Below, piece after piece: positions 1,296 to 18,601 of a DNA stretch of 64,000 bases; the stretch's first letter is position 1, and each line of letters begins with the position of its first letter. Origin of the DNA: a virus (lineage: Duplodnaviria; Caudoviricetes); the IMG/VR virus record IMGVR_UViG_2886098363_000001, positions 12,318 to 76,317 of that record; one strand, given 5' to 3'. The position numbers and the translations under genes are program-made. The notes under the pieces were generated by a model. The model searched no databases and was not told where the DNA came from. It was given only the letters and a program-made list of their open reading frames with translations.

Positions 1296-1299
1296 TGTC

Positions 1300-1326
1300 A
1301 AAAGGACTGGCTAACCAGTCCTTTTT
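1300..1326. terminator. Bidirectional intrinsic terminator between hns and the convergent integrase
   Basis: AAAAGGACTGG-CTAA-CCAGTCCTTTTT. Confidence 0.8.
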
Positions 1327-1357
1327 CTATTGCGTTGTTGAGTTATTGAAACTTAGC

Positions 1358-2602: not shown

Positions 2603-2622
2603 ACGCTCCGGAAGGCATACAA

Positions 2623-2647
2623 AACGATATGCCTAACGATATGCCTA
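2623..2647. repeat. Tandem direct repeat AACGATATGCCT x2, a probable integrase arm-type site
   Basis: Exact 12-bp tandem repeat between the integrase start and the att core, with GGCATAC copies nearby. Confidence 0.55.
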
Positions 2648-2760
2648 AAAGGGCTGGATGGCAACGCACCCCATTGGACAGCATAAGACAACAAAAAACC
2701 CGCAAAGCCTTATGCTATGCGGGTTTCTTGGACTTCGTTGGTCACTGTTGGACCGGTATT

Positions 2761-2789
2761 TGGTGGAGCTGGGGGGATTTGAACCCCCG
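2761..2789 (-). repeat. ssrA: att core: duplicated 3' end of tmRNA (T-arm plus acceptor CCA), not a full gene
   Basis: Reverse complement reads CGGGGGTTCAAATCCCCCCAGCTCCACCA, the ssrA 3' end. The sequence upstream does not continue as tmRNA. Confidence 0.85.
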
Positions 2790-2826
2790 GACTGAGCAGC
2801 TTTACCAATTGAACTATAAGACTTTT

Positions 2827-4002: not shown

Positions 4003-4226
4003 TTGGTTACCTCCGCGATGTTGACCCAACGCTCCTTTACCCCGTCCACGTTGACGATGTGAACCCCCAACTGCCAGATACCGCGCTGGATCCGCTTGTT
4101 GATGGTGTCCCGGTCGGTGAGCTCGATAGTGCTCAGGTAGGTGCTGAGCGGGATGGCGTCAGGCATTCTCATTATGATGAGCTGGCCCTGAATGTGGGTT
4201 TGCGCCGGGTCTGCTGCTGTTCCCAT
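3969..4226 (-). CDS. xis: Excisionase-like protein
   Basis: Overlaps the int start. DTINKRIQRGIWQLGVH...ERWVN is typical of Xis paired with DUF3596 integrases. An alternative start lies at 4172. Confidence 0.75.
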   Translation of the reverse strand: MGTAADPAQTHIQGQLIIMRMPDAIPLSTYLSTIELTDRDTINKRIQRGIWQLGVHIVNVDGVKERWVNIAEVTKWAMKNSSHAA

Positions 4227-4596
4227 GGTTGTTGGTCCTCGTCAGTCTGGTGATTTCATCCCGGCCCGCTCGGTTGTAGAGGAAGCATTCCACCTGCTTC
4301 CTGCTGCTGACCGCCTGGTCAAGGCGGTACTCCCCGAACGCCGGGCGTTTGAGTTGGTGCTGGTTGGCCAGCCGGCCAATGGCCTGGGCGCTGACCCCCA
4401 GCTCCTTGCCCAGTTCGGTGGCGCTCCAGAGCTGGCCGGCAACCCGGGGCGCTTCGATGGGCAGATCGAAGTGCGCCAGGATGCGGCCGATCTCGGCGAG
4501 CTTGGCCGATCGGGAAAGGGTGGGGGAGCGCACGGCGCTGACCAGCTCGTTGAGAAGCTGGCTGTCCTGGTCGATGGTCAGTTGAAGTTGCTGCAT
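4159..4596 (-). CDS. Antirepressor C-terminal-like DNA-binding protein
   Basis: WSATELGKELGVSAQAIGRLANQHQLK...KQVECFLYN resembles the C-terminus of the ant protein at 62801-63622. Confidence 0.7.
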   Translation of the reverse strand: MQQLQLTIDQDSQLLNELVSAVRSPTLSRSAKLAEIGRILAHFDLPIEAPRVAGQLWSATELGKELGVSAQAIGRLANQHQLKRPAFGEYRLDQAVSSRKQVECFLYNRAGRDEITRLTRTNNHGNSSRPGANPHSGPAHHNENA

Positions 4597-4681
4597 GGCG
4601 TGGCCCTCCTGTCCCAGAGGATGGGGCGCCGGGTGAGTTGAAGGAAGGGCCGTTATTGGCCGTGCGGCTCGCGGATCCAAC

Positions 4682-4708
4682 AAAAACCCCGGCGCTAGGG
4701 CCGGGGTC
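4682..4708 (-). terminator. Intrinsic terminator after the KilA-N gene
   Basis: ACCCCGGC-CCTAGC-GCCGGGGT followed by TTTTT on the minus strand. Confidence 0.7.
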
Positions 4709-4729
4709 TGGGTTGAAATGGGTGGTGCT

Positions 4730-5416
4730 TCAGTGCGACTGCATCAGCGCCTTGGTGCGCCGGGTGACCGAGGCCAGGGTCAGCTTCATCAGGTCGGCCA
4801 GGTCGTCATTGCTCATCAGGTCGAGCATGCGCTGCATGTCGCGCGGGTCGGTGGGGTCGATGACGCAGGCGCGTTCGGCCACCGGCCAGAGGGTGAGACT
4901 GTCACCGCCGTGGCGGCCGCTCATACTGCCACTGTCTGGCTCGATGCTAAGCATGTAACGGGTGGTGCCCAACTTGTGGCAGAGGGCCTTGGCCAGTTGC
5001 TGGGGGCTGCATTTGTGCAGGTCGCTGGCAACGGGCGGGAAGGGGATATCGTTATCAGTCAGCTCAGCAAGCTGGCGGTGCAGTGCTTCGCTTTCGCTGC
5101 GGCGGGCCGCTTGAGCGGCAGCGTACACCTCGACTTCAAAAGCGGGCTCAATCCAGCCTGCATATTTCATGGCCACCAACTCGACCGCCCACACTCCTGG
5201 CTTATTGCCACCCCTCACCGTTTTCAAAGCGGGAAATCCCGCTTTGGCCTCTACCGCTGCGATGTAGGCGCCATTGAAGCGCTTGAACTCGCTGGGCTTG
5301 TGCGATGTGGTAGCTTTGCCTTGGGCGATGGCAGCTTTATGCAGGTCGTTGAGGTTGTACATACCATCGGCTGCAATGGTGATGGAGTGGTTGGCAATGG
5401 TGAGCTTAGTGTTCAT
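4730..5416 (-). CDS. KilA-N domain protein (antirepressor-like)
   Basis: NHSITIAADGMYNLNDLHKAA...WAVELVAMKYAGWIEPAFEVEVY is a KilA-N signature. RBS AAGGA. An in-frame Ash-like extension runs up to 5584. Confidence 0.88.
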   Translation of the reverse strand: MNTKLTIANHSITIAADGMYNLNDLHKAAIAQGKATTSHKPSEFKRFNGAYIAAVEAKAGFPALKTVRGGNKPGVWAVELVAMKYAGWIEPAFEVEVYAAAQAARRSESEALHRQLAELTDNDIPFPPVASDLHKCSPQQLAKALCHKLGTTRYMLSIEPDSGSMSGRHGGDSLTLWPVAERACVIDPTDPRDMQRMLDLMSNDDLADLMKLTLASVTRRTKALMQSH

Positions 5417-5455
5417 AGTTGATTTCCTTCGGTTCAAAGATGAATCGCCACCGAA

Positions 5456-5695
5456 GAGACCAATCTTACTGGTGACGAACTGAGCAGGATTGGTCTTACC
5501 GGGAACCAAAGAAACCGGCGCCCCCGAAGGGGCTCCTGCCCAGCCCGTCATAACTGAAATTGCGGGTACTACTGGGCTGCACATAAAAAAACACGCGGGC
5601 GCGTGTTGTGCGCTTTAGTTCATCGGGAGACCAATCCCGGCAATGGATTTTGCCGTTGCTTTTATAGTATCTAGAAACATTGGCATGGTTGTCAA
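5456..5695 (-). ncRNA. P4 CI / P1 c4-like antisense immunity RNA locus (seqA-seqB-seqC arrangement) with promoter
   Basis: GATTGGTCTC occurs twice (5627-5636 and 5456-5465) flanking its complement AGACCAATC (5488-5496). Promoter TTGACA-18-GATACT at 5666-5695. Ash-family-like shadow peptide. Confidence 0.6.
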
Positions 5696-5701
5696 TCCAT
5701 G

Positions 5702-5728
5702 AAAAAGCCCAGCGCGAGGGCTGGGCTT
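5702..5728 (-). terminator. Terminator of the two-gene moron
   Basis: AAGCCCAGC-CCTCGC-GCTGGGCTTTT. Confidence 0.7.
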
Positions 5729-5753
5729 GACTTGGTCTGGTGACGGAGGGGGG

Positions 5754-6074
5754 TCAGTATGGCCATTTATCAAGATTGTCCCATTTGGAGTCAGCCTTGA
5801 AGTCGCGGGCAAACTCCGCGCAGGCCCTCACCACTGTTGCGCGCCTTGATGAGGGGGTTGAACCTTTTGGATACTTAAACTGCAGCCCTTTGTCGTAAAG
5901 GATGTCCGCCAAGGCGGAGCCATTCCCATAGTTGTACTCACCAGTAAATGAAGATGCAGGCATACGCCTTATGACTTCACAGTTATCAATAATGTCAACC
6001 GCATCTTGGGCCGCTATTTTTTCACCATTAAAGTTGAGACAGGCAACCAACCCCAGCATGCATGAAATTCCCAT
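5754..6074 (-). CDS. Hypothetical moron protein
   Basis: 106-aa ORF, AT-richer than flanks, no recognisable motif. Confidence 0.55.
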   Translation of the reverse strand: MGISCMLGLVACLNFNGEKIAAQDAVDIIDNCEVIRRMPASSFTGEYNYGNGSALADILYDKGLQFKYPKGSTPSSRRATVVRACAEFARDFKADSKWDNLDKWPY

Positions 6075-6099
6075 TATATATCCCCGATAAATGGCGTTA

Positions 6100-6459
6100 T
6101 CACTTATACCTGCATGATCTCACATAGATCGTGTCACTTGGCGATGAGCTGAACCTTGATGGCAGCTCGCTGTGCAATCGACACAAATCTCCGCGAGTGC
6201 TGATTCCTGCCACGATAAAGTCTGTGGCGATCCAGTCGCCATCTTTCTTGTAGCGTATCGGAATTCTGCTTCCATCCTGGATTTTGGTTGGTATCACAAC
6301 GTCATAGTCCGTGCCTTTTGAGAAGAGGAGATAATTGCTCACTATCTCAAGCCGCCCTGTTCCCGGTGTGACAGCCACGATTGCCCACTCATCATCAGCC
6401 ATTGAATGGCCAGAGAGCAGCAGCAATGCCGCACCCAACCCAACCTCCAATCGTCTCAT
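6100..6459 (-). CDS. Hypothetical exported protein (moron)
   Basis: Signal-peptide-like N-terminus, AAGGAGG RBS, and own candidate promoter TTAACG-17-AATAAT upstream. Confidence 0.7.
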   Translation of the reverse strand: MRRLEVGLGAALLLLSGHSMADDEWAIVAVTPGTGRLEIVSNYLLFSKGTDYDVVIPTKIQDGSRIPIRYKKDGDWIATDFIVAGISTRGDLCRLHSELPSRFSSSPSDTIYVRSCRYK

Positions 6460-6540
6460 AACACCTCCTTGTTATTTATGGGGGGTATTATTGCACCGAT
6501 TGGAGCTGACGTTAATGCCCCGGACTTGCCGGGGCTATGG

Positions 6541-6759
6541 TTATGCTCGCCAGCCCCGGTACCCGATAAAGCCGGGATCCATGACTTGCCTGAACGGCAG
6601 GACGGGGAGGTGGGCTATCAGGGTCTTGAGCTGGGGGTTATCGGGTTGGCTGTCGATGGTGACCCGGGCGCCGGGGTTGATGCGGAGGTATCTGGCGCGG
6701 GTCTCTTCGGCTTCGGTGCGGGTCAGGCCGGGCTGAATGATGGGGGCTCGGTAGCGCAC
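6541..6759 (-). CDS. Small phage hypothetical protein
   Basis: 72 aa with AGGAGG RBS, in the leftward early operon. Confidence 0.65.
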   Translation of the reverse strand: MRYRAPIIQPGLTRTEAEETRARYLRINPGARVTIDSQPDNPQLKTLIAHLPVLPFRQVMDPGFIGYRGWRA

Positions 6760-7355
6760 GGCTCACCTCCTTGTAACACCGCAGGCGCGGCGAGATCCGC
6801 CCGCACATACGGCACCTCGCAGCCAGTCACGGAATCAGCGCACCAACTCACCTCGCTGGTATCGCTCGGGAATGGCTCGCTGTGGTAGTGGCTCTGGTCG
6901 CCAACCTGCAGCCAGATGCGCTCCGGCGCGGTGCGGATGGTTTCAGTAATTGTCACGGTAGGGGATGGCAGCTGGTCAGCCAGTAGCGCGTCTATGCGAT
7001 TATGCAAAGCTCGCGCTTCATCTTCGCCGACACCGCCGCACTCCCAGTTGAACGCATCCATGGCCTCCCTAAGTACCGGTTCAGAATCCCGTACGAAATC
7101 AAGCGCCGCCTTCATACGGCTCTGCACTTGGTCGTGCTGGGCCTGCAGCTCACGGTAGTCCTGCTCGTTCGGGGTGGTAGTGGCCTCGGTCCAGTCGGCA
7201 TCTGGTTGCGCTTGTGGGGTGCCAGCCAACGCGGCATCGATGCGATCAAGCAGGTCGCAACCCAGGTAGTGTTCGGAAATGGTCTGCGGTATCGAGGCAC
7301 CGATGTATTCGTGTAGATCTCGCAGCAGATCTGTTATGCGCTGCTGTTCGCTCAT
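6723..7355 (-). CDS. Phage hypothetical protein
   Basis: 210-aa ORF coupled to its neighbours. Confidence 0.65.
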   Translation of the reverse strand: MSEQQRITDLLRDLHEYIGASIPQTISEHYLGCDLLDRIDAALAGTPQAQPDADWTEATTTPNEQDYRELQAQHDQVQSRMKAALDFVRDSEPVLREAMDAFNWECGGVGEDEARALHNRIDALLADQLPSPTVTITETIRTAPERIWLQVGDQSHYHSEPFPSDTSEVSWCADSVTGCEVPYVRADLAAPAVLQGGEPCATEPPSFSPA

Positions 7356-7711
7356 ACATCCCCCAGAATTCTGATTTCGTCGTCCGTCAGGCCAGCGGCC
7401 CGGGCCTTGTCCATCACCCGCAGGCGCTCGGCGTTGAGCGCGTCAGCGCGGCGATCTGCGTCGTTGGGCTCGATGATGCTCACCGGCGCCAGCCAACTGC
7501 CGCGCACCTTCACGGCGATCTCCTTGCTGACGTTGGCGTCGCTCCCCTGGACGCCCTTGCGTATCGCCATGCGTTCCGCGGTTGCGGGTGAGCCGCAGAC
7601 GTGGATCGGGTACTGATACCCACGCCCCTCGGTAAGGTCGGTGTTGGTGTAAACCACCCAGACCTCCTTGGTGTCGGTTATGGTGAGATCGGTCATGACC
7701 CCTTCCCCCAC
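7352..7711 (-). CDS. Phage hypothetical protein
   Basis: 119 aa. WVVYTNTDLTEGRG motif seen in phage early genes. Start may be 7696. Confidence 0.7.
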   Translation of the reverse strand: MGEGVMTDLTITDTKEVWVVYTNTDLTEGRGYQYPIHVCGSPATAERMAIRKGVQGSDANVSKEIAVKVRGSWLAPVSIIEPNDADRRADALNAERLRVMDKARAAGLTDDEIRILGDV

Positions 7712-7965
7712 TTGCGCATGGCCTGCCGTTTGCTCAGGCCCTTGGCGTTGCCAAAAATCATTTGCCCCATGATCTCCGCCCGGCTACGACCGACCTCCAA
7801 CACGCTATCGTCGCCGTGCCGCACCAGCACATACGCCTTCTTGTACTTTCCAGACTTGATTTGCGTGCTGTAGAACGCGAGGCGAAATGCGGTCCTGAAG
7901 CTCTCCGTGTCATCGCTCTCCCTCATGCGCCGGATGTAGAGCGATCCCTTGCGATATTTGCTCAT
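7693..7965 (-). CDS. Basic phage hypothetical protein
   Basis: 90 aa, overlaps the rdgC stop. Confidence 0.6.
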   Translation of the reverse strand: MSKYRKGSLYIRRMRESDDTESFRTAFRLAFYSTQIKSGKYKKAYVLVRHGDDSVLEVGRSRAEIMGQMIFGNAKGLSKRQAMRKWGKGS

Positions 7966-8873
7966 AGCGGGGCCTCCTCACCACCCAGGGCATTGAACAG
8001 GGCCGGGATGAATTGGGAGAGCTCGCCGGTCACCAGGGCGAAGTCTGCGTCCAGGCGGGCGGCGGGATCTTCGCTGGTCACATCATCGTTCTGCTCGCGC
8101 AGCTCCTCGCTGAACTTCAGGCGCTTGATGGAGAGGTCATCGCCCAGCACGAAGCTGATGCTCTCGCCCCAACTCAGGGCTAGCTTGGTCACCAGCTTGT
8201 CGTTGGCGAGGTGGTTTTTCACCTCGTCGGTCATCAGGTCCTGCTGTTTGAAGCGGGCGATGCCGCCATGCTGCTGGGCGCTGCGCAGTTCGGATTCGTC
8301 TTCAAGCAGGAACGGGGCGGGCACGATGCTCTTGCTCAGCCACTCGGTCATGGTGATCTCGGGCGGGTTCTTCAGAGCCACCGGCACCACCGGCAGGCTG
8401 CCAATGGACTTGCGCAGCAGGGCGAGCACGTCGTCCGCCTTCTTGGCGGAGGAGGCATCGACCATCAGCAGGCCGTCTGCCGGGTTGATCCAGGCGAAGG
8501 TCTGGCTGGTGCGGCTGAATGCCCGGGGCAGCAGGGTGTGCAGCAGCTCCTCCTTGAGCGCTTCCTTCTCTTTCTTCTTGAGGGCGCGGCCCTGCTCGTA
8601 CTCGATGGCCTCCACCTTCTCTGCCAGCGCCTCCTTGATGACGGCGGTCGGCAGGATCTTGTCCTCGCGGCGGGCACACAGCAGGATCTGGCCGTTGGCG
8701 ACATGGGTCAGGGTACGACCGAACTTGCCGAGAGGGCGGGTCCAGCCGAAGCGGGAGAGGTCTTGGCTGCCGCAGGGGGTGAAGGCGCATTCCTCGAGCT
8801 GGGTTTCCAGCTGTTCGGCGGTCAACTCGAACGGGCGGGTGAAGCGGTAAACTTGAAGGTTTTTAAACCACAT
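7962..8873 (-). CDS. rdgC: Recombination-associated protein RdgC (phage copy)
   Basis: MWFKNLQVYRF...FTPCGSQDLSRFGW...LDADFAL. Confidence 0.95.
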   Translation of the reverse strand: MWFKNLQVYRFTRPFELTAEQLETQLEECAFTPCGSQDLSRFGWTRPLGKFGRTLTHVANGQILLCARREDKILPTAVIKEALAEKVEAIEYEQGRALKKKEKEALKEELLHTLLPRAFSRTSQTFAWINPADGLLMVDASSAKKADDVLALLRKSIGSLPVVPVALKNPPEITMTEWLSKSIVPAPFLLEDESELRSAQQHGGIARFKQQDLMTDEVKNHLANDKLVTKLALSWGESISFVLGDDLSIKRLKFSEELREQNDDVTSEDPAARLDADFALVTGELSQFIPALFNALGGEEAPL

Positions 8874-8902
8874 GGTCTGGGTCCTTTGGTCGGTTTGGTC
8901 GG

Positions 8903-9082
8903 TTAGTTGCGGGCTTTCTTGGCCTGCAGGTCGTGGATCTTCTTGGCTGCGGCCTCGGCGGTTTGCCGGTCGCAGGTGATGCCGCCGGGCAGGATGAATT
9001 TGCCGGGCTGCTTGGGATCGGGCATGACGACGCCCAACCCGATGACTACTGCACCGCAGTAGGGGTTTTCCGTGGCTTTCAT
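8903..9082 (-). CDS. Small lambdoid protein (DUF1317-like)
   Basis: MKATENPYCGAVVIG...FILPGGITCDRQTAEAAAKKI. Confidence 0.65.
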   Translation of the reverse strand: MKATENPYCGAVVIGLGVVMPDPKQPGKFILPGGITCDRQTAEAAAKKIHDLQAKKARN

Positions 9083-9140
9083 GGGGGTCCTCGACTTATC
9101 CACCGTTTCTGTGTGGCCTGCGGTGGATGGGTTGGGGGTA

Positions 9141-9719
9141 TCAGGCGGCAGCGCTGATGGGCTCTGCTCCGGCAAGCAGCAGGGTGAGCTTGCTGACATC
9201 GCGGATCCGGCATTCACCGCGCCAGTTTGGGGCGAAGATGAGGAGCATGGAGCCCTTGGGGTTGCCCTTCATCTCCTCGCCGGTGGCCTTGTTGATGAAG
9301 CTCACCCGGCCGTTGCGCCATTTGCCATTGGCATCGTGGTAACCAGTGATGTGGCGAACTTCGCTGGCGCGCTCACCGGGGTACCATTCCGTGCTGGTGT
9401 CCTGGGGTACCAGCATGACGGTACCAATGCCGCGCCCCTGCTGCTCGATGGCCTTCTCAACCCACGGCCCGATATCGGAGTAGGGCGGATTGAGCCAGGC
9501 CCATGGGGCCCGCGCCGACGGGCTGATAAAGTCGCCCCAGTCCACGCTCAGGGCGTCGATATCCGGTGTTAGGTACTTCTCGCAGAGCGCCGTTTCCGGC
9601 AGTGCGGCGGCATCAAGGGCGAAGTTGAATTCCAGATCCATCGCCCGGAACAGCCAGAGCGGTGTCTGGGTCATGTCGCGGGTGGCTTCTGGAGTGGTGG
9701 AGCCGCGGTAGTCAGCCAT
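9141..9719 (-). CDS. dam: Phage DNA N6-adenine methyltransferase (lambdoid Dam family)
   Basis: QTPLWLF...FALDAAA...WLNPPYS catalytic motif. Confidence 0.92.
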   Translation of the reverse strand: MADYRGSTTPEATRDMTQTPLWLFRAMDLEFNFALDAAALPETALCEKYLTPDIDALSVDWGDFISPSARAPWAWLNPPYSDIGPWVEKAIEQQGRGIGTVMLVPQDTSTEWYPGERASEVRHITGYHDANGKWRNGRVSFINKATGEEMKGNPKGSMLLIFAPNWRGECRIRDVSKLTLLLAGAEPISAAA

Positions 9720-10326
9720 TGGCGGCCTCCTTGCTGGCGTTGTACTGCTGAATCCCCCAGACGATAGCGTGCAGGATCCACAGGTAGTGGTGGCTGTATC
9801 GCTTCATCGTCAGCCCCTCCATCAACTCATATTGGCTTGGCAGGTCTGAATCGTGGATAGCCTGGCAGGCCTGAAACTCGTGGCTGTAGCTCTCTTCGCA
9901 GATTTCATTGACCGCGCTGATAATGCCTGAGCAGTCCTTGCCATCTTCTTCACAATCTTGTTGCAGCTCCGCTATCCACTCCTGCAGCCCAGACTTGAAG
10001 GATTCCTCGTCAAACTCCATGCAGATTTCATCGCAGCGGCCAGAAGCTCCCATCTGGAGTTTTTCGCCCCAGTACCGCGGATTGACGCCCTTCTCGAAGT
10101 TGCCACCGAAGAACTCGAACATGTCGGCGGTTCGGCTGAATGTCCATGTCCCCATGTCGCCGCAGACCGTGAGGTGGCCAGGCCATGTAACCAGGTCGAA
10201 GCGGTAGACAGAGCTGCCACGGTTAGAAAACTCAAGGTGACGGTAAAGGCCATCATCACGATGCACCTTCATGGTGTGTTCAGAGGTGTCGCGCAGAAAA
10301 TCATTTTTCGCTTGCTGGGTGCTCAT
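9712..10326 (-). CDS. Conserved phage hypothetical protein
   Basis: 204 aa containing FDLVTWPGHLTVCGDMGTWTF. Confidence 0.8.
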   Translation of the reverse strand: MSTQQAKNDFLRDTSEHTMKVHRDDGLYRHLEFSNRGSSVYRFDLVTWPGHLTVCGDMGTWTFSRTADMFEFFGGNFEKGVNPRYWGEKLQMGASGRCDEICMEFDEESFKSGLQEWIAELQQDCEEDGKDCSGIISAVNEICEESYSHEFQACQAIHDSDLPSQYELMEGLTMKRYSHHYLWILHAIVWGIQQYNASKEAANG

Positions 10327-11540
10327 GCCGCCTCCTTGTGCTGTTCAGCCTGCTGGTTGGCTGCAAACTGCTCCTCCCACAGCTTCACCTTGAGCTCGCA
10401 GGCGTAGACGATCTGGCCGACCAGCTTCTCGCCGATACCCTTCACCTTGTCCAGCTTGTTCCCCTGGTGGCTCATCACCTTGTAGAGGGTGTCGATCCCG
10501 GCCTCCTCCAGCGGCTTGATGGTGCGCGGCGGCAGGCCGCATTCATGGATGCTGACTGTCTTGGCCCATTCGGTGCGGGGTTGCAGGTGGGGGTGACTCT
10601 GCTCCAGTGCTTCCTGCATGAAGTCGAAGATGTCCTGAGTCATGTCGTCCGGGGCCCCGGCACCATAGGGCGTCGGGTAGATGGGGTTCATCCACTGGCT
10701 CAGCATGACCGAGCAGCCGGAGCCATCGGATTTCATGGCGTGCAGCTTCCAGTTGAGGTCGTTGATGAGGTAGGGGAGGTTGGATTTCAGGCCATGATCC
10801 ACCAGGTAGACGTTCCAGAGCATGCCATCCTCACCCTTGTAGGTGTTGGCGAGGTGTTTGTGCCAGACCAGCTTGGCGGCGCGGGCGCTTTCCAGCTCCA
10901 TGATGACGGTGTGGCGGCGCTCCAGTTCACGATCCTGATCGTTGATGACGCCCAGCAGCTCACTGATACGGCGCTCCAGCTTCAACACTTCAGCGCGGTA
11001 GGCTGCCTCGTTGCTCTTGTGCTTGGCGATGGCGGTGCGCTGCTCCTCAAGCAGCTCGTTCTTCTCCTTGATGCGGCGTTTCATGCCTGCCGGATCCATG
11101 GCGTTGAGGTCGGCCAGTTGGCGTTCGAGCTGGCGGGCGCTGTATTGCAGGGCGCTGTATTTGGTCTGGACGTCGTTCAGGGCGCGCTGGGCCTTATAGA
11201 GCTCGTCGGCCTTGGCTTCCAACCCGGTGGCGCCTTCTTGTCGTGCGGTAGTAATGCGCTGCTCGGCTTCGGCAATCTGCTGGCGCAGCTCGCTGACCAG
11301 GGCCGCCTGGGTGAGCAGCTCGCCATCCCGGCCTTCCAGCTCGCCGATCAGGGTGTTGAACTCGTCGATATGGGCGTTGGCGGCCTCGCTGATCATGGTC
11401 AGGTTGGCGGTGAGCAGGGTTTCGAAGCTGCCGATGGCGGCCTTGGCCGGGGCGTCCGGCATCAGCAGGATGTTGCGGATCTGGCTGGTGAGGGTGTTCA
11501 GGGCGAGACTGGTCGCCTCGCTGGGGTTCAGCGTGGTCAT
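10323..11540 (-). CDS. Coiled-coil protein with a C-terminal RNAP alpha-CTD-like (HhH) domain
   Basis: Long heptad region, then SIHECGLPPRTIKPLEEAGI...LDKVKGIGEKLVGQI. Confidence 0.7.
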   Translation of the reverse strand: MTTLNPSEATSLALNTLTSQIRNILLMPDAPAKAAIGSFETLLTANLTMISEAANAHIDEFNTLIGELEGRDGELLTQAALVSELRQQIAEAEQRITTARQEGATGLEAKADELYKAQRALNDVQTKYSALQYSARQLERQLADLNAMDPAGMKRRIKEKNELLEEQRTAIAKHKSNEAAYRAEVLKLERRISELLGVINDQDRELERRHTVIMELESARAAKLVWHKHLANTYKGEDGMLWNVYLVDHGLKSNLPYLINDLNWKLHAMKSDGSGCSVMLSQWMNPIYPTPYGAGAPDDMTQDIFDFMQEALEQSHPHLQPRTEWAKTVSIHECGLPPRTIKPLEEAGIDTLYKVMSHQGNKLDKVKGIGEKLVGQIVYACELKVKLWEEQFAANQQAEQHKEAA

Positions 11541-11589
11541 GGTTGGTCCTCTGGGATTGCAAAAGCCCCGTTGGCGGCGGGGCGGGTGA

Positions 11590-12678
11590 TCAGTAGTTGA
11601 TGGTCAGGTGGTCGATCTTGTTGCTGGCGATGTGCTTGATGAGGTTGATGGCTTTCCCCTCATCGATCCCCAAGCCCATCAGGTCCATCAGGATGGCGTT
11701 GTTGATGGTGCGGCGGTGCTCCATGTCGGCGGCGCGCGCAGCATCCTCTGCGGCTTTCTGGCGCTGCTCGTCAGCGATGCGCTGACGCTCTTCCTCAGCA
11801 GCGCGAGCGGCGGCCTCTTCCGCCTGGCGTGCAGCGTTTGCTTCGGCCTGCTGGCGGGCCAGCTCGGCGGCTTCGGAATCACGCCGGGCCTGCTCTGCAG
11901 CCTGCTGTGCCACCTGGGCTTGGCGTTGGGCCTCTTGCTCGCGGTGCTGGGCGGCTTCACGCTCCAGGCGCTGGCGATTCTCTTCCTGAAGGCGGGCTTG
12001 CTCCGCCGCCTGCTCGGCTATCAGGCGCTCGCGGTCGATGCGATCCTGTTCGGCCTGCTTCTGGCGCAGCTGCTCCAGCTCGGCCTGCTCGGCTTCGTAC
12101 TTCTGGCGGGCTGCCAGGGCCTCGCCGAGGCGCTTGGCGGCGAGCTCCTTGGCTACGGTCGCCTGGGGCAGCAGCTCTTGCCAGGTGTCGTCCAGGGGAT
12201 TCTGCTCGGCCTCCTGCAGCATGGCCTGCAGGTTGGCGGCGGCGATCTCGATGCTGGCAGAGGATCCCAGTTCATTGAGGCGGGCCAGTCGGGATTGCAG
12301 TGCTGCCACCCGGGCCTCCTCTGCCGCTTCGTACTGGGTGAGCGGGGCGCGCACCTCGTCTTTCAAGGTGTCCAGGGTGTCGCGCAGGGTTTTGCGGTTG
12401 GCGTCGATGCGCTTGGGGATCTCCTTGTACTGGTCGGTCAGCTCTTTGCCGAGCCCGTCCAGGTAGGTCTTGGTGCGGGCAACGGCATGGGCGACGCTGG
12501 CGATCTCCTTGCGGCCCTTGGCGGTGGTGATGTCGGGTACCAGGCTGGTTGCCTTCTGGCGAATGTCGGCCAGCAGTTCAGCCACGCCCTGGCCCTCGGT
12601 GAACAGGGCGACGGCGGTAGTGGGTTCGATGACAACCAGTTGGGCCTGGGTGTTGTCGGTCTTGGCTTGTTCGGTCAT
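11590..12678 (-). CDS. Conserved phage coiled-coil protein
   Basis: DITTAKGRKEIASVAHAVARTKTYLDGLGK motif and an Ala/Glu/Gln-rich tail. Confidence 0.8.
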   Translation of the reverse strand: MTEQAKTDNTQAQLVVIEPTTAVALFTEGQGVAELLADIRQKATSLVPDITTAKGRKEIASVAHAVARTKTYLDGLGKELTDQYKEIPKRIDANRKTLRDTLDTLKDEVRAPLTQYEAAEEARVAALQSRLARLNELGSSASIEIAAANLQAMLQEAEQNPLDDTWQELLPQATVAKELAAKRLGEALAARQKYEAEQAELEQLRQKQAEQDRIDRERLIAEQAAEQARLQEENRQRLEREAAQHREQEAQRQAQVAQQAAEQARRDSEAAELARQQAEANAARQAEEAAARAAEEERQRIADEQRQKAAEDAARAADMEHRRTINNAILMDLMGLGIDEGKAINLIKHIASNKIDHLTINY

Positions 12679-12726
12679 GACGGGTCCTTAGGATTGAAAA
12701 GGCCCGCAGTGAGCGGGCCTGATGAG

Positions 12727-14655
12727 TTATTGCTGGGCGCCGTTCCCGGCACTGAGTTGCTTCTTGCGCTCGCCGGCGATCTGCTTGATACCTGCGATGA
12801 TGTTCTGGTCGCCGGTTTCGTTGGCCCAGGTCCAGGCGGTGGTGTAGGCCTGCTGCCATTCGGTGGTATCACATGCCCCCTCGATGGCGGCGCAGTGGTC
12901 GGCGTAGGCGTTGGCGTGGTCCGCCTGGGCGGGTTCGGCCATCTGCTCATGCTCCAGGGTGACCGATTCGATGCTCTGGCCGCGGATGGCATCCAGGGTG
13001 CGGCTCTTTGCCGGTGCGCCATGCTGCGGTTGGCTACCTGGGATCTCGTTGATGATGATCTCCTTGCCCTCCATCTCCTCGGCGGTGGGCTCGCTACCGA
13101 TCTCCGGCCAGGCCTTGCGTAGCGCCTGCGCTTCTGTGCAATTTCCACACAGCATAGACAGCCCCTTGCGACGAACAACGATGACGCCGGATGGCACAGT
13201 GACGCACCATACTTGGCCACCTATGTTTGGTTGAATGGTTAGTGAGGCGCGGTTCTTCTCAACGCCCTTTACCACCGGAGAGCTGATGGTTTCCGAGAGT
13301 GTGAACCGGCTACATTGGCCAAGGTCGCTATTTTGAACAGCAGCAACGCTTATCGAGTAGCCAGCTTGCACGGCCAGCACCTCGAAGGCTTTAATGACAT
13401 TGGCGTTCGACTGGTGTAACCGCCGCACCGAACCATTATGTGATCCGTCGAACTCCAAAAGGGCATCAACGACAATCCGCGCTTGGCGCACCGAAAGACT
13501 TAGCGCCCACTCAGGGCTTACAGATTTGTCGTGGCACATGATGCCGTTGACCAGCGCTGCGTCATATGTGAATGACTGTTTGTTACTGGTCGTAGTTATG
13601 GGACGATCACCACCGCTGATCCGGCCTGCATCCCGTTTTATTGTCTTTCGCATGTGCAACTTGAGTGAATCAAGTGCGAGCACCTTGTATGGGCGCGATA
13701 CGGCGATGCGGTACTGGTGATAGCCGGTATGTGAACCATCCGCCAGCAAATACCCAACCAGAGCCAGCAGGGAATCTGAAAATGGTGCGTCTCCACGGTT
13801 TCCCAAAACTGTGCGAGGAATGCTCCATTTATCAGAATCCGTGGTGGCTTGCTCGTAAAGCAACCCCGCCTCGACCCTGCCCTGATTCGTGATCATGTCG
13901 TGATTTGGCGTCACGCAGAAATTTAGGCGAGTGCCATCGGCAACGACCATGGGGCCGTCATAACTCTGAACGAATGGTACAGCATCGGTGTATTCGAGTC
14001 CGGCATCGGTAACCTGCAAAATACGACCTGTAACTTGGGCGAATCGTTGGAACCCCTCGGAAGTAAGCACCTCAGTCTCCGAGTCAAAACATTTTGCCAG
14101 CTGGGCATACGGACGCTTACGCCACATGGCGTTGGGGCACTCGGTCTTTCCGCTCTGGGTTGCGTAGTTCTCCTTCCAGCGCTCCAGGGCGTGGAAGGCA
14201 ACCCGCTGGCCGTTGACCATCTTATAGACGGTGTACTTGCACCACTGCGGGTAGGTGACCTTGATCTTGGCGCTCTGGTTGTAGGGGTCTTGGAACTCTT
14301 CGGTGACATCCGGCCCGAACACGGGTTCATCGGCCCCCGCGTAGTTGCCGGAGCGATCGGCCTGGATCCGGTACATGCCGATCCCGGGCATCGGCACATC
14401 CCGCCAGACCTTCTCTTTGCTGCGGGCATCGGTTACCTGCATGGGGACGAGGTGGACCGGCTTGAGCAGAATATCCAGGCCGCGCGCCTTACAGTAGTCG
14501 ATGGCCATGACCACCGAATCGGGGTTGGCTCCCGGGTAAATGGTGTTGCACAGGGCGTTCCAGGTCGGCTCGTCGATGCCTCGCTGGACAAGAATGGGGA
14601 ACTGGGCGGCGAAGTTATCGGCCGCCTGCTGTTTGAGGCTGGTGATGTTGCTCAT
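12727..14655 (-). CDS. bet: Bet/RecT-family single-strand annealing protein interrupted by an intein
   Basis: YCKARGLDILLKPVHLVP...MPGIGMYR...MWRKRPYAQLAK[intein]CTEAQALRKAWP. Lies downstream of a RecE-like nuclease. Confidence 0.92.
   Translation of the reverse strand: MSNITSLKQQAADNFAAQFPILVQRGIDEPTWNALCNTIYPGANPDSVVMAIDYCKARGLDILLKPVHLVPMQVTDARSKEKVWRDVPMPGIGMYRIQADRSGNYAGADEPVFGPDVTEEFQDPYNQSAKIKVTYPQWCKYTVYKMVNGQRVAFHALERWKENYATQSGKTECPNAMWRKRPYAQLAKCFDSETEVLTSEGFQRFAQVTGRILQVTDAGLEYTDAVPFVQSYDGPMVVADGTRLNFCVTPNHDMITNQGRVEAGLLYEQATTDSDKWSIPRTVLGNRGDAPFSDSLLALVGYLLADGSHTGYHQYRIAVSRPYKVLALDSLKLHMRKTIKRDAGRISGGDRPITTTSNKQSFTYDAALVNGIMCHDKSVSPEWALSLSVRQARIVVDALLEFDGSHNGSVRRLHQSNANVIKAFEVLAVQAGYSISVAAVQNSDLGQCSRFTLSETISSPVVKGVEKNRASLTIQPNIGGQVWCVTVPSGVIVVRRKGLSMLCGNCTEAQALRKAWPEIGSEPTAEEMEGKEIIINEIPGSQPQHGAPAKSRTLDAIRGQSIESVTLEHEQMAEPAQADHANAYADHCAAIEGACDTTEWQQAYTTAWTWANETGDQNIIAGIKQIAGERKKQLSAGNGAQQ
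13141..14091 (-). mobile_element. Intein (317 aa) with LAGLIDADG homing endonuclease
   Basis: Starts CFDSETEVLT. Block B FCVTPNHDM. Motifs LVGYLLADGS and VDALLEFDGS. Ends VWCVTVPSGVIVVRRKGLSMLCGN followed by +1 Cys. Lower GC than the exteins. Confidence 0.93.
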
Positions 14656-15497
14656 GCTGCTTTCCTTGTCGCCCAGGCTGGGCGCTGGAGGGGTTTGAAG
14701 TCGTGCCAGTCGTTGTTGACCCGGCAGTCGTGGAAGCGATGGAGGTCGCGGCGGAACAGGTCCTTGCCCGCATCCTTCCAGTCATCCGTCAGGGGGCGCA
14801 CCCGCACCGGGTAGCGGCCACAGTTCACGCTGGTGCTGACAGCCAGAAAGACGAATTCCGGCTCCTCGCCCATCACCCGGTGGAAGCCTTCGGAGTACAT
14901 GGCATCCTGCACGTGGTAGCGGAAGTCCTCGACATGGCGCTCGAAGCGCCCCATATCGTCCACCGACTTCACGTCGATCATGATGGGGTGATTGCTCAGG
15001 TGGCGGTCGGGGCGGATCCGGCACAGCTCCTGGGTCTGGGGGTCAATCCAGTAGAAGGAGGCCTCGCTGTGCCCTTCCTGCTCCAGCAGCCAGCGGGCGT
15101 CCGGGTGGGCCATCACGCTGTCGCGCATCAGGTAGAGCTTGCGTCCCTCCTCGGCATCCATCACCGTCTTGCCCAGCTCTGCGCAGCTGGCTAGGAACTC
15201 AGCCTCTTCTGCCTTGCCGGCGTTGGTGCGGCGGTTGAACGGTGGGGCGATGATGAAGCGGTCTTTGAACTCGTCGGGCTCCAGCAGCAGGCAGTGGATG
15301 GCGCTGCCCATGTCGAAGGCCTTGAGCTTCTCCTCATCTACCGGGGCATTCTTGGCCCAGATATAGGTGGCTGGGCTTTCGGCGATCTGGTCGAGCTGGC
15401 TTTTGCTGACCCCGGGGCCAGCGTGGTACTCCTCGTTGGAGAGGCCGAACACCCGGCCAAGCAGGTGCGCGGTGGAGGTGTCGGCGATGGCATTCAT
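14652..15497 (-). CDS. recE: RecE/exonuclease VIII-like PD-(D/E)XK nuclease (DUF3799)
   Basis: SNEEYHAGPGVSKSQLD...GSAIHCLLLEP...CRIRPDR...IDVKS...YHVQDAMY. Confidence 0.9.
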   Translation of the reverse strand: MNAIADTSTAHLLGRVFGLSNEEYHAGPGVSKSQLDQIAESPATYIWAKNAPVDEEKLKAFDMGSAIHCLLLEPDEFKDRFIIAPPFNRRTNAGKAEEAEFLASCAELGKTVMDAEEGRKLYLMRDSVMAHPDARWLLEQEGHSEASFYWIDPQTQELCRIRPDRHLSNHPIMIDVKSVDDMGRFERHVEDFRYHVQDAMYSEGFHRVMGEEPEFVFLAVSTSVNCGRYPVRVRPLTDDWKDAGKDLFRRDLHRFHDCRVNNDWHDFKPLQRPAWATRKAA

Positions 15498-16076: not shown

Positions 16077-16553
16077 TTAGTCGCTGGTCACGCTGATGGT
16101 CAGCTGTTTGCCGCGCCCCATAAAGTCAGCCAGGGCGGCGACGCGATCCTGCTGTTGGGTGACGCGGTGGCGCTGGCTGGTATCCAGCACATCCAGATTG
16201 ACGTTGACGCTGACCTCGACCAACTTGCGGGTCTCGCGTTCCAGCGTCTTGGTGTACTGCTTGGCGGCAATGGCTATCTGTTCGGACGGGGAAGCCAGCT
16301 CGTAACCGTGCCCACGCTTGATGTCGAGATAGATCTTGCGCTCGGTCAGCAGCAGCTCCCGCAACTCGTTGACGCTACGCAGCACCCGCCACTCATACTC
16401 GTCGCGGGCAGCATCGTATTCGGGGATGCTGTGGTATTTTTCCGGGAAGGGGCGTTCCAACCCCAGCATGCGGCGCAAGTCTGCGTGACTGATGAAATCG
16501 CCGTAGTGGAGCCCGAGAGCATCCCAGGCTGTCAGTTGTTCTTCCTGAGTCAT
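16077..16553 (-). CDS. Hypothetical protein coupled to the RAMP/Cas7-like gene
   Basis: 158 aa. Its ATG overlaps the upstream TGA by 4 bp. Confidence 0.8.
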   Translation of the reverse strand: MTQEEQLTAWDALGLHYGDFISHADLRRMLGLERPFPEKYHSIPEYDAARDEYEWRVLRSVNELRELLLTERKIYLDIKRGHGYELASPSEQIAIAAKQYTKTLERETRKLVEVSVNVNLDVLDTSQRHRVTQQQDRVAALADFMGRGKQLTISVTSD

Positions 16554-17137
16554 CCGGCCACCTCCACGTTGAAGCGGCCGTAAGTGCCGCCGCAGGCTGG
16601 GCGCCAGTCGCCCACGCCCACATAGCGACCGGCGTTGCCGAGCACGGTCAGCAGTTCGCTGCGATCCAGCCTGGTGTCGTCAAATTCGATGTGAAAGACC
16701 AGTTGCCAGCCAGCAGGGAAGCGCGGGCGGTGGCGCATCACTCGTGCGGTCCCCACCTTGACGCTTTTGGCCAGCGAGAAGCCCGGCGTGTCTACCAGTT
16801 GCTGCGGGTCTTGCGGGCCGTCGTAGCGCAGTGTGATCTCATCTTCCAGCACCAGCAGGCTGCGCTTGAATTCGGTACCCAACTTGTTGAGCTTGGCCGC
16901 CTCGGTCAGGCAGGCTTTCAGGTTGCTGCCCGGCAGGTGGATGCCACTGGCCCTGCTGAAGTAGATCGCCCCCAGTAGTTCGGAGCGGGCGATATCCTCG
17001 TGGTCGGTGTCGGATTTCTTGCGCTTGGAGGTCAATGCCTTGTGCGCCTTGGTCATCGGATCCAGCGGGTCGCTAAAGCGGTCGCTGTGCATCAGTAACG
17101 GGGTGGTGCCCGTCAGTGTCAGTTTCAGTGTTGCCAT
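16550..17137 (-). CDS. RAMP/Cas7-like protein (putative Vipr-type RNA-guided effector)
   Basis: 195 aa. N-terminal LKLTLTGTTPLLMH strand, internal HLPGSNLKACL motif (compare RAMP IPGSSLKG), and Gly-rich C-terminal loop GRYVGVGDWRPACGGTYGRF. RBS GAGGA. Confidence 0.8.
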   Translation of the reverse strand: MATLKLTLTGTTPLLMHSDRFSDPLDPMTKAHKALTSKRKKSDTDHEDIARSELLGAIYFSRASGIHLPGSNLKACLTEAAKLNKLGTEFKRSLLVLEDEITLRYDGPQDPQQLVDTPGFSLAKSVKVGTARVMRHRPRFPAGWQLVFHIEFDDTRLDRSELLTVLGNAGRYVGVGDWRPACGGTYGRFNVEVAG

Positions 17138-17171
17138 TGTGTAGTCCTCGTTGATGTGCCCTTCCGGGCCC

Positions 17172-17226
17172 TTGCCTTGCCCAGCCAAGCCGGGCCCTGC
17201 CACGCCGCGCCCAGCCGGGCCGAGCC
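17172..17226 (-). ncRNA. GGC-NN pentamer array B (11 units), putative guide RNA
   Basis: Minus strand reads (GGC-NN)x11 with NN = TC,CC,TG,GC,GT,AG,CC,TT,TG,AA,AA. Preceded by TGC, followed by GGG. Confidence 0.8.
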
Positions 17227-17294
17227 GCAGGGCCAAACACACTCAGGGAATGCGCTTGGCGCTGGGCGGTTTTTAACGAGGACCGCCACCTCCC

Positions 17295-17349
17295 ACGCCT
17301 TGCCACGCCATGCCACGCCATGCCCGGCCCTGCCTTGCCTCGCCAGGCC
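17295..17349 (-). ncRNA. GGC-NN pentamer array A (11 units), putative guide RNA
   Basis: Minus strand reads (GGC-NN)x11 with NN = CT,GA,AA,AG,CG,AT,GT,AT,GT,AA,GT. Preceded by TGC, followed by GGG. Confidence 0.8.
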
Positions 17350-17763
17350 GCAGCCTGGAACCCCCTGTGACAAGAGGCTCCAGGCTGGCCACTGTCACCA
17401 GTGGCCTGCCGGTTACGTTATCCGGCGCTGTCTGGTCAGCCGTTCGCGGTGTCGCGCTCTTGCCGCTAATAACAGGTATCCACCCCAGAGTTGCGGACTG
17501 CTCTACCCATGCCGCTTGGTTTATTGACCCTGGCCAGATGCAAAGCTGGCTCCCTACAAGGGGACTCGGGGCGCCATCATTACTGGCGCATGGATTGGCC
17601 GCTTTTAACGGCTGTCGGTCACATCGTTCGCACTCCATGTTGTGTTGAGGTCGCAATAGTCGAGTGATAAATCGTTCACGTTCACACGCCGCTTTCCGAA
17701 TTTACGGGTTATCGGCGCATCCCTACCGGCATCGGGATTCGTGGTTGTGAGCCGGTTCCTGGT

Positions 17764-17775
17764 TGTTAAAGAGCG
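17764..17775 (-). promoter_or_regulatory. boxA antitermination element
   Basis: CGCTCTTTAACA on the minus strand matches the lambdoid boxA consensus. Confidence 0.75.
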
Positions 17776-17874
17776 AGCTCAGCCGAATTTGGCGTGAGCG
17801 AAGCCAAAGCATCCTTGCGGTGCTTGTGAAAGAGGCTTTGGCTACGGCGCTATCAGGGAAGCGCCAGACCCGGG

Positions 17875-18186
17875 TCAGATGGCGTTGCGGTGGAACTCAG
17901 CGCGCCAGTGGAGGAGGGCGCGGCATTTCATGGCGGTCATGGTGCGCACCTTGGCAGACTGGGCGGTGCGGGCTGCGACGAGCTGGTGCCGCTCGGTGGC
18001 CATCATGGCAACCGCCAAGCGTTGCTTGATGGTTCGGCGGCGGGCGGCGTTGCCGTTCAGGCGGTCGGCGATGGCGGCAACGATCTGGTCGGCGCGTTTT
18101 GCGGCTCTGGAAATAGTGACTTTCATCATGTTATCCTTGCGTCTGTTGGCGAGTTGGTCCTCGCTAATTCCCAGTTGATTCGTCAT
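17875..18186 (-). CDS. Basic protein, possible N-like antiterminator
   Basis: First substantial ORF after PL. GNAARRRTIKQRLA resembles the arginine-rich motif of P22 N. An alternative start lies near 18129. Confidence 0.5.
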   Translation of the reverse strand: MTNQLGISEDQLANRRKDNMMKVTISRAAKRADQIVAAIADRLNGNAARRRTIKQRLAVAMMATERHQLVAARTAQSAKVRTMTAMKCRALLHWRAEFHRNAI

Positions 18187-18553: not shown

Positions 18554-18601
18554 ATTATTGCCAAATAGAAATGAAAGGTCAATGACGTTCCAAAAAGAAA
18601 T
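18554..18601 (-). promoter_or_regulatory. PL promoter with two overlapping putative CI operators
   Basis: TTGACC(18577-82)-17-AATAAT(18554-59). Operator-like ATTGCCAAATAGAAAT (18557-72) and CGTTCCAAAAAGAAAT (18586-601). Confidence 0.7.

What the first reader, a model, noticed from the sequence alone, without database searches (positions are those of the whole stretch)
17172..17349. Decoded putative guide content of the two arrays
Seen: array A NN = CT GA AA AG CG AT GT AT GT AA GT; array B NN = TC CC TG GC GT AG CC TT TG AA AA. Inference: if every third target base is skipped (my recollection of the VIPR geometry), the targets are CTnGAnAAnAGnCGnATnGTnATnGTnAAnGT and TCnCCnTGnGCnGTnAGnCCnTTnTGnAAnAA, or their reverse complements. 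If the skip falls on the codon wobble position, A reads L-[DE]-[KN]-[SR]-R-[IM]-V-[IM]-V-[KN]-V. The reverse complement of B then reads [FL]-[FL]-[HQ]-[KN]-G-L-T-A-[HQ]-G-[DE]. Both are stop-free and protein-like, which would make targeting immune to synonymous escape. I found no such peptide in the supplied ORF track, which suggests a non-self target, but I could not scan the DNA exhaustively.
Basis: inference. Interest (0 to 1): 0.85.

Follow-up and report, generated by a model that had tools for sequence, protein, structure and literature searches.

The report
Aeromonas prophage VIPR guide RNAs decoded
The two five-base repeat tracts are guide RNAs of a recently described phage RNA-guided silencing system (VIPR); one guide matches a variable early gene of rival Aeromonas prophages, and no target was found for the other.

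Summary
These are the only such tracts in the 76-kb provirus; shuffles give at most 4-5 units. They lie just upstream of a 195-aa homolog of SUSP1 Vipr (PDB 36pp, E 1.5e-47). Units 1-9 match exactly (19/22 overall, all skips on wobble positions) a variable N-terminal cassette (..TMTIRLFSR..) of a small early-left gene in rival Aeromonas lambdoid prophages. All 3 IMG/VR hits fall on those codons. A 1.08-Mb panel has 45 sites at 17/22 or better, against 0.25 expected, only at skip 1. The phage's own allele scores 11/22. Guides from sister loci hit the same gene, including this phage's own allele. Guide B has no match above chance in anything searched; Aeromonas chromosomes and plasmids could not be searched. 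Verdict: a new member of a known kind. Earlier first-reader notes of this scan on this same stretch had flagged the locus as VIPR-like.

The parts
17295..17349 (-). vrRNA A guide tract: 11 x GGC-NN (NN = CT GA AA AG CG AT GT AT GT AA GT), preceded by CTGC at 17350-17353
   Evidence: units 1-9 match the rival early-gene allele exactly
17227..17294 (-). 3' tail of vrRNA A. It begins GGGAGGTGGCGG and contains a hairpin; the start is conserved in the distal vrRNAs of sister loci. Its last bases (..CCCTGC) form the 5' boundary of vrRNA B.
   Evidence: fold z = -3.45; the same tail start in 12 of 27 unique guides, with one further variant (GGGAGGCGGCGG). A rival guide from L015 matches 17273-17307 at 23/24.
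17172..17226 (-). vrRNA B guide tract: 11 x GGC-NN (NN = TC CC TG GC GT AG CC TT TG AA AA); target not found
   Evidence: negative searches
17138..17171 (-). Sequence 3' of vrRNA B. It begins GGGCCCGGAAGG (small GCCC-GGAA-GGGC hairpin) and runs into the vipr ribosome-binding site and start codon. It is conserved in all vipr-proximal arrays.
   Evidence: not significantly structured (z = -0.62)
16550..17137 (-). vipr: 195-aa stand-alone RAMP protein
   Evidence: full-length match to SUSP1 Vipr, PDB 36pp_D, E 1.5e-47; phrog_4652 at E 1.5e-63. SUSP1 residues H17, K33, R39, K82, R138, D177, W178 and R179 are identical in the alignment.
16077..16553 (-). Probable vap accessory gene, 158 aa, overlapping the vipr stop by 4 nt
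   Evidence: phrog_5926; always follows vipr in the 10 sister loci. No domain recognised.
17350..17425 (-). Two strong hairpins immediately 5' of vrRNA A; also present in VIPR-negative relatives
   Evidence: fold z = -5.05; conservation
17875..18186 (-). Small early-left gene (103 aa), own 'self' allele (cassette RRKDNMMKVTI). Other alleles of this gene are guide A's target. This allele is itself matched by a rival guide (from L008/L014) at 17870-17904, 21/24.
18554..18582 (-). Promoter-like site (TTGACC-17-AATAAT) downstream of the repressor gene's terminator; candidate leftward early promoter driving the small gene, the vrRNAs, vipr and vap
   Evidence: a consensus match only

Best explanation
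This is a type II-like VIPR locus sitting in the leftward early operon of a lambdoid Aeromonas provirus. On the minus strand the order is: repressor gene, promoter-like site, small 103-aa gene, hairpins, vrRNA A, vrRNA B, vipr, vap, then the exonuclease/RecT recombination genes. By homology to the SUSP1 and P. fulva systems, Vipr protomers are expected to polymerise on each GGC-NN tract. They would hide the GGC bases and present the NN pairs, which then pair with double-stranded DNA of the form NN-x-NN and block transcription there. Guide A is aimed at the variable N-terminal cassette (codons ~17-27, ..ECTMT(I/R)RLFSR..) of the same small early-left gene in rival Aeromonas lambdoid prophages, with every skipped base on a codon third position. 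Its own allele (..KDNMMKVTISR..) is not matched. Binding at the first gene of the rival's early-left operon would be expected to silence that gene and whatever lies downstream of it, namely the recombination genes and, in VIPR-positive rivals, their own vrRNAs and vipr. Guide B is probably also a working guide, because other vipr-proximal guides of this clade have clear targets, but its target is not in any data I could search. What is shown: the repeat anatomy, the Vipr homology, hypervariable NN under an identical protein, the skip-1-specific wobble-phased match of A, self-avoidance, and convergence of sister guides on the same gene. What is inferred: expression and processing of the vrRNAs, silencing itself, the importance of the small gene, and any role for B.
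For: Anatomy. Vipr homology over the full length to a solved SUSP1 Vipr, with the RNA- and DNA-contact residues conserved. The exact same Vipr protein occurs on many Aeromonas contigs (434 index blocks) with 1-3 upstream arrays whose NN differ while GGC, the CTGC boundary and the tails are kept; there are 27 unique guides. Guide A: an 18-base exact pattern (units 1-9) has 3 IMG/VR hits, all on the same codons of the same gene family, all in wobble phase, 19/22 overall. The comparable 18-base scan for B gave 0 hits and the 16-base scans gave 9 each, so about 0.5 chance hits are expected. In a 1.08-Mb panel of 59 related records, skip 1 gives 45 sites at 17/22 or better, against 0.25 for shuffled guides (null maximum 17); skips 0, 2 and 3 give nothing apart from the arrays themselves. 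The own allele scores 11/22 at the homologous site. Allele classes: 19/22 in 3 loci, 18/22 in 8, 15-17/22 in 26, and 11/22 in the 11 loci of the self class. Convergence: guides from L017 and L013 (20-22/24) and from L008 (21-22/24) hit the same gene at its two variable cassettes. Other guides of the clade hit cro, an antirepressor, an early-right gene, a variant vipr and the vrRNA tail, which is the target spectrum published for type II VIPR. No self-target.
Against: The best match for A is 19/22, not perfect. The two 3'-most units mismatch, and no 22/22 site exists in IMG/VR. The 45 panel sites are homologous copies of one site, so they amount to one independent hit. Most rival alleles score only 17/22, below the published 80% threshold. 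The function of the targeted gene is unknown. No expression data exist for these vrRNAs, and no promoter-like site was found between the small gene and the arrays, so VIPR may be silent in the lysogen. Guide B has no target and its 3' flank is not significantly structured.
Confidence: 0.8

Rival explanations
1. Guide A's true target is something else, and the 19/22 match to the small early gene is chance or a by-product of local sequence composition.
For: The match is imperfect, the panel sites are not independent, and the panel was built by baiting with that very gene family, which enriches for it.
Against: The first hit (18/22) came from loci baited with Vipr, not with the gene. The unbiased IMG/VR scan gave 3 of 3 hits in this gene, all in wobble phase. 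The analytic chance of 19/22 or better in 2.2 million positions is about 0.005. Three other guides from sister loci hit the same gene.
Confidence: 0.07
2. Guide B is not an offensive guide. It could be a decayed or spare array, a leader that lets Vipr bound just upstream of the vipr ribosome-binding site regulate its own translation, or a guide for a host chromosomal site.
For: No target in any searched set. B ends 34 nt from the vipr start codon and lacks the structured tail of A. Most vipr-proximal guides of the clade also lack hits in the panel.
Against: B has 11 perfect GGC units. Proximal arrays are as hypervariable as distal ones. Two proximal guides do have phased targets: L008 guide 3 on a variant vipr at 20/22, and L015 guide 3 on an antirepressor at 18/22. 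An array with only a regulatory role would not need variable NN.
Confidence: 0.25
3. The tracts are ordinary GC-rich simple repeats or a structured 5' UTR of the downstream gene, not guide RNAs.
For: No expression data. Tandem Repeats Finder sees them only as imperfect repeats of period 5-25.
Against: Exact period 5 with an invariant GGC over 11 units, twice, against 4-5 units by chance. They are adjacent to a clear Vipr homolog. NN is hypervariable between loci with an identical protein. The skip-1-specific target matches would be unexplained.
Confidence: 0.02

Closest known systems
Type II VIPR of the Pseudomonas fulva prophage (bioRxiv 10.64898/2026.04.26.720920 and .720927)
   Same: It is prophage-borne with 1-3 vrRNAs upstream of vipr, followed by a small vap gene. 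It uses GGY/NN guides and the one-base-skip code. Its natural targets are regulators and early genes of other resident prophages and other VIPR systems, and it shows no self-targeting.
   Different: The host genus differs (Aeromonas). I could not compare the protein sequence directly with the P. fulva Vipr because no sequence was available to me. Here the favoured target is a small gene of unknown function at the head of the early-left operon. The two tail types differ, and the vipr-proximal vrRNA runs into the vipr ribosome-binding site.
SUSP1 VIPR of an Escherichia phage (PDB 36pp; same preprints plus 10.64898/2026.10.15.759431)
   Same: The Vipr protein is homologous over its full length (E 1.5e-47) with the key contact residues conserved. 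vrRNAs have 9-16 repeats plus a structured tail, and targeting is codon-phased so that synonymous changes do not escape.
   Different: As described in the papers, SUSP1 infects and carries one vrRNA upstream and three downstream, and it mainly targets a satellite's recombinase. The present element is an integrated lambdoid provirus with both vrRNAs upstream, and its identified target is a rival prophage gene.
Class 1 CRISPR-Cas crRNA-Cas7 filaments
   Same: A RAMP protein polymerises on a guide RNA, with periodic thumb-induced breaks in guide-target pairing (the papers' comparison).
   Different: There are no CRISPR repeats or spacers, no adaptation genes and no nuclease. The guide is non-contiguous (2 of every 5 RNA bases read 2 of every 3 DNA bases).

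Membership tests
VIPR (Viral Interference Programmable Repeat) system | A Vipr protein: a minimal stand-alone RAMP homologous to characterised Viprs | tested here: met
   phmmer against PDB: SUSP1 Vipr 36pp_D, E 1.5e-47, residues 3-193 of 195. H17, K33, R39, K82, R138, D177, W178 and R179 are conserved.
VIPR (Viral Interference Programmable Repeat) system | Adjacent non-coding tracts of 9-16 tandem GGY-NN units | tested here: met
   Two tracts of 11 perfect GGC-NN units, 35 and 158 nt upstream of vipr on the same strand.
VIPR (Viral Interference Programmable Repeat) system | GGY invariant and NN hypervariable among close relatives | tested here: met
   Loci encoding the identical Vipr protein carry different guides; 27 unique guides in the panel, with the GGY scaffold, CTGC boundary and tail starts conserved.
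VIPR (Viral Interference Programmable Repeat) system | A conserved, structured 3' tail after the repeat tract | tested here: inconclusive
   The vrRNA A tail is conserved and folds better than shuffles (z = -3.45), and a GAGG/CCUC loop pairing (pseudoknot) is possible by eye. The vrRNA B flank is conserved but not significantly structured (z = -0.62). No covariation test was possible because the tails are nearly invariant.
VIPR (Viral Interference Programmable Repeat) system | Natural targets obey the one-base-skip rule, mostly in coding DNA with the skip on the wobble base, in competing mobile elements, with no self-target | tested here: met
   Met for guide A and for at least eight sister guides. 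Not met for guide B, for which no target was found. No self-target for either guide.
VIPR (Viral Interference Programmable Repeat) system | An accessory vap gene next to vipr (in type II, a predicted DNA-binding protein) | tested here: inconclusive
   A 158-aa ORF is translationally coupled to vipr and always follows it, and it matches phrog_5926. No DNA-binding domain was detected by Pfam or by PDB sequence search. Its structure was not predicted.
VIPR (Viral Interference Programmable Repeat) system | vrRNAs are expressed as ~100-nt RNAs, bind Vipr and silence transcription at the target | not testable with these tools
   Needs small-RNA sequencing, pull-down and reporter assays.
CRISPR-Cas | A repeat-spacer array with cas genes including adaptation genes or an effector nuclease | tested here: not met
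   No repeat-spacer array, no cas families in the neighbouring ORFs and no CRISPR RNA family.

The most novel reading that the evidence does not exclude
Aeromonas lambdoid prophages may form reciprocal VIPR 'targeting groups'. The small early-left gene would carry two swap-able variable cassettes that are kept diverse because rival guides read them. In support, this phage's guide A reads the L008-type allele while the L008-type guide 1 reads this phage's allele. The vrRNA genes and vipr itself are also targets. Arrays would be remodelled by recombination between tracts (L009 has an A/B hybrid). The 3'-most NN unit (AA in 21 of 27 guides, matched in only 9 of 48 guide-site pairs) would be scaffold rather than guide, which would refine the published code. 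Guide B would then point to an unsampled competitor or to a host locus.
Probability: 0.35. Interest if true: 0.65.

Novelty: new member of a known kind. Interest (0 to 1): 0.5.

Why it matters
VIPR was described only in 2026, and its natural targets have so far been mapped only for the SUSP1 (Escherichia) and Pseudomonas fulva type II clades and for types III and V against IMG/VR. This locus adds a third, widespread type II-like clade: the exact Vipr protein appears in 434 index blocks of public Aeromonas data. Its guide-to-target network can be read directly from sequence. That network includes reciprocal targeting between alleles of one early gene, guides against a rival's vipr and vrRNA tail, and an array made by recombination. 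It offers a natural test bed for how many mismatches VIPR tolerates and whether the terminal repeat contributes to recognition. Most of the concept is already published; what is new is one specific target.

Tried and rejected
1. Self-targeting: none. The best self scores are 15-16/22, equal to shuffled guides.

2. Skips of 0, 2 and 3 bases as controls: nothing above the null apart from the arrays themselves at skip 3.

3. Full 22-base exact scans of IMG/VR for A and B: no hits.

4. Guide B sub-windows in IMG/VR (units 1-9, 2-9, 1-8 and 3-10): 0, 9, 9 and 9 hits. All score 16-18/22, come from unrelated contigs and have no blastn similarity to the Aeromonas panel.

5. Guide B units 1-9 in JGI metagenomes: 20 hits, about what chance predicts. 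They are mostly marine housekeeping genes out of wobble phase. The one attractive hit (L071: 20/22, in phase, in a TylF-type methyltransferase on a capsid/primase contig) has no Aeromonas link, so I rejected it as chance.

6. Guide B in 45 whole related viral records with up to 3 mismatches: none.

7. Guide B against Vipr homologs and small-gene alleles at the codon level: at the null level.

8. Reaching Aeromonas chromosomes failed. The NCBI assemblies that carry the locus are not held. Class-level samples centred on the only held relative contained no aerolysin-positive or SeqA-positive genome. No tRNA or tmRNA marker exists in the window.

9. Function of the targeted small gene: no Pfam, PHROG or Atlas assignment. 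My idea that it is a lambda N-like antiterminator rests only on its position and an arginine-rich stretch recalled from memory, so it is not claimed.

10. Co-residence of the target allele and the VIPR phage in one assembly: the look-up found no record.

11. An orphan array in phage PCAh2 next to the look-alike non-coding segment: none.

Full report
**What is there.** Read on the minus strand, window 17353-17295 is CTGC followed by 11 perfect GGC-NN units (array A). Window 17230-17172 is CTGC followed by 11 more (array B). Each tract ends in a GGG-NN unit. A scan of the whole record (76,317 nt, an IMG/VR provirus rated complete) finds only these two tracts. The longest run in 50 shuffles was 4-5 units.

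**What system it is.** "VIPR" is real and recent. Three 2026 preprints describe a stand-alone RAMP protein (Vipr) that polymerises on vrRNAs made of 9-16 GGY-NN repeats plus a structured 3' tail. It recognises double-stranded DNA of the form NN-x-NN. The skipped base usually falls on the codon wobble, and binding silences transcription in competing satellites and prophages. Here the ORF directly downstream of array B (16550-17137, minus strand, 195 aa) matches the solved SUSP1 Vipr over its full length (PDB 36pp_D, E 1.5e-47). In that alignment the residues the structural paper names as contacting G1, G2, the skipped base and the non-target strand are identical: H17, K33, R39, K82, R138, D177, W178 and R179. 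A 158-aa ORF overlaps the vipr stop by 4 nt and always follows vipr in relatives, so it is a probable vap, although no domain was recognised. The neighbourhood is a lambdoid early-left operon. It runs from a CI-type repressor and its terminator through a promoter-like site (18582-18554), a 103-aa gene (18186-17875), about 520 nt of non-coding DNA ending in two strong hairpins, vrRNA A, vrRNA B, vipr and vap, to small ORFs, an exonuclease VIII-like gene and RecT. The P. fulva type II locus is described with the same layout, vrRNA1-3 then vipr then vap1.

**Sister loci.** The identical Vipr protein is indexed in 434 blocks of public assemblies. The source names attached to homologs of the adjacent small gene are Aeromonas hydrophila, A. 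caviae and A. rivipollensis. Ten fetched loci carry 1-3 arrays in the same place. The GGC scaffold, the CTGC boundary and the three tail types are conserved, but the NN content is almost entirely different. With the IMG/VR relatives there are 27 unique guides. L010 has the same two guides as the window. L009 has a single 9-unit array equal to A units 1-4 joined to B units 7-11, which indicates recombination between the tracts. A Cellvibrionaceae MAG with a 69%-identical Vipr also has two GGN-NN tracts upstream of the gene.

**Guide A.**
- *No self-target:* the best self match is 15/22, the same as shuffled guides.
- *First lead:* against the Vipr-baited loci, A scored 18/22 on L008 and L014. 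The site lies in the 5' part of the homolog of the window's own 103-aa gene, on the antisense strand, with every skip on a codon third position.
- *Codon-level scoring:* among 120 alleles of that gene, the best (19/22) carry ..ECTMTIRLFSR...
- *Unbiased IMG/VR scan:* the 18 specified bases of units 1-9 returned three contigs, all at those same codons, all in wobble phase, and 19/22 over the full guide. The mismatches are confined to units 10-11.
- *Chance expectation:* the equivalent 18-base scan for B gave 0 hits, and three 16-base scans gave 9 each, so about 0.5 chance hits are expected.
- *Panel test:* in a 1.08-Mb panel of 59 related records, skip 1 gives 45 sites at 17/22 or better, all at this one site, against 0.25 for shuffled guides (null maximum 17). 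Skips 0, 2 and 3 give nothing. These 45 are homologous copies, so they count as one independent hit. The analytic chance of 19/22 or better in the panel is about 0.005.
- *Where the site sits:* the gene family has a conserved core and two variable cassettes, and A's site is the N-terminal one.

Guide A's score on each allele class of the N-terminal cassette:

| Cassette | Guide A score | Loci |
|---|---|---|
| RSECTMTIRLF | 19/22 | 3 |
| RSECTMTRRLF | 18/22 | 8 |
| five other non-self cassettes | 15-17/22 | 26 |
| RRKDNMMKVTI (self class, including this phage) | 11/22 | 11 |

**Convergence.**
- Guides from L017 and L013 hit the same gene just upstream of A's site (20-22/24).
- L008 guide 1 hits its C-terminal cassette (21-22/24), including this phage's own allele at window 17870-17904. 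This phage and the L008 type therefore target each other.
- Other guides of the clade hit P22-type cro (20/22), an antirepressor N-terminus (18/22), a 129-aa early-right gene (21/24, 39 sites) and a variant vipr allele (20/22).
- L015 guide 1 hits the repeat/tail junction of other phages' vrRNAs (23/24), including window 17273-17307.
- This is the target spectrum published for type II VIPR.

**The 3' end of the guides.** Across 48 distinct guide-site pairs at 80% or better, the last unit matches in 9 and the penultimate in 28. Internal units match in 39-48. The last unit is AA in 21 of 27 guides. The pairs are not independent, but this suggests that the last unit belongs to the scaffold. If so, A's 19/22 is effectively 18/18 over the units that matter.

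**Guide B.** Nothing exceeded chance in any of the following:
- the own contig;
- the panel at any skip;
- 45 whole viral records with up to 3 mismatches;
- IMG/VR scans with 11, 9 or 8 units;
- JGI metagenomes, where 20 hits look like chance and one attractive hit has no Aeromonas link;
- Vipr homologs and small-gene alleles scored at the codon level.

Aeromonas chromosomes and plasmids could not be reached. Other vipr-proximal guides do have phased targets, so B is probably a real guide for an unsampled element or a host locus. A decayed or regulatory role cannot be excluded.

**Mechanism.** The assembly and the silencing mechanism are inferred from homology. Expression, processing at the CTGC boundary and the effect on a rival phage are untested. 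No promoter-like site lies between the small gene and the arrays. The cassette is therefore likely transcribed with the early-left operon, and so would act on infection or induction rather than in the quiescent lysogen. That timing is inference.

**Verdict.** The system and its wobble logic are already published. What is new here is the Aeromonas clade and one specific target.

Noticed in passing
window 17870-17904 and 17273-17307: This phage is itself a predicted target of rival VIPR guides. L008/L014 guide 1 matches the 3' end and stop codon of its small early gene at 21/24 in wobble phase. L015 guide 1 matches the last repeats plus tail hairpin of its vrRNA A gene at 23/24.
   Followed up: partly
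L009:9922-9966 (GCA_003265605.1): A single 9-unit array equals window guide A units 1-4 joined to guide B units 7-11. This looks like a deletion by recombination between the two tracts and shows one way arrays are remodelled.
   Followed up: partly
27 unique guides in L008-L017, L046, L048, L054, L056 and the window: The 3'-most NN unit is AA in 21 of 27 guides and matches the target in only 9 of 48 guide-site pairs, whereas internal units match in 39-48 of 48. It behaves like scaffold rather than guide.
   Followed up: partly
window 17350-17875: The non-coding stretch between the small gene and vrRNA A is modular. The first ~200 nt and the last ~70 nt (two hairpins, z = -5) also occur in VIPR-negative relatives. 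The middle ~250 nt is an optional insert, 84% identical to an intergenic region upstream of the terminase genes of Aeromonas phage vB_AhyM_UALMA_PCAh2. Its function is unknown.
   Followed up: partly
window 5468-5555 and 5586-5659 (minus strand): Rfam matches above the gathering score to the C4 antisense RNA (P1/P7-type immunity RNA) and to isrK.
   Followed up: no
window 1358-2602 and 2827-3777 (minus strand); G000 1-14900: Two integrase-like ORFs lie side by side. The left ~15 kb of the provirus record looks like a second integrative element with a P4-type integrase, together with YqaJ-like, RecT-like and primase-sized ORFs. This is judged from ORF starts only. Neither guide matches it.
   Followed up: no
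window 12730-14655 (minus strand): The RecT-family protein is 642 aa, against 303-344 aa in sister loci. I did not check it.
   Followed up: no
L003:700-900 (Cellvibrionaceae MAG JAGKWU010000022.1): A 69%-identical Vipr has two upstream tracts that include GGA-NN and CGC-NN units, which is a looser scaffold than GGY.
   Followed up: no
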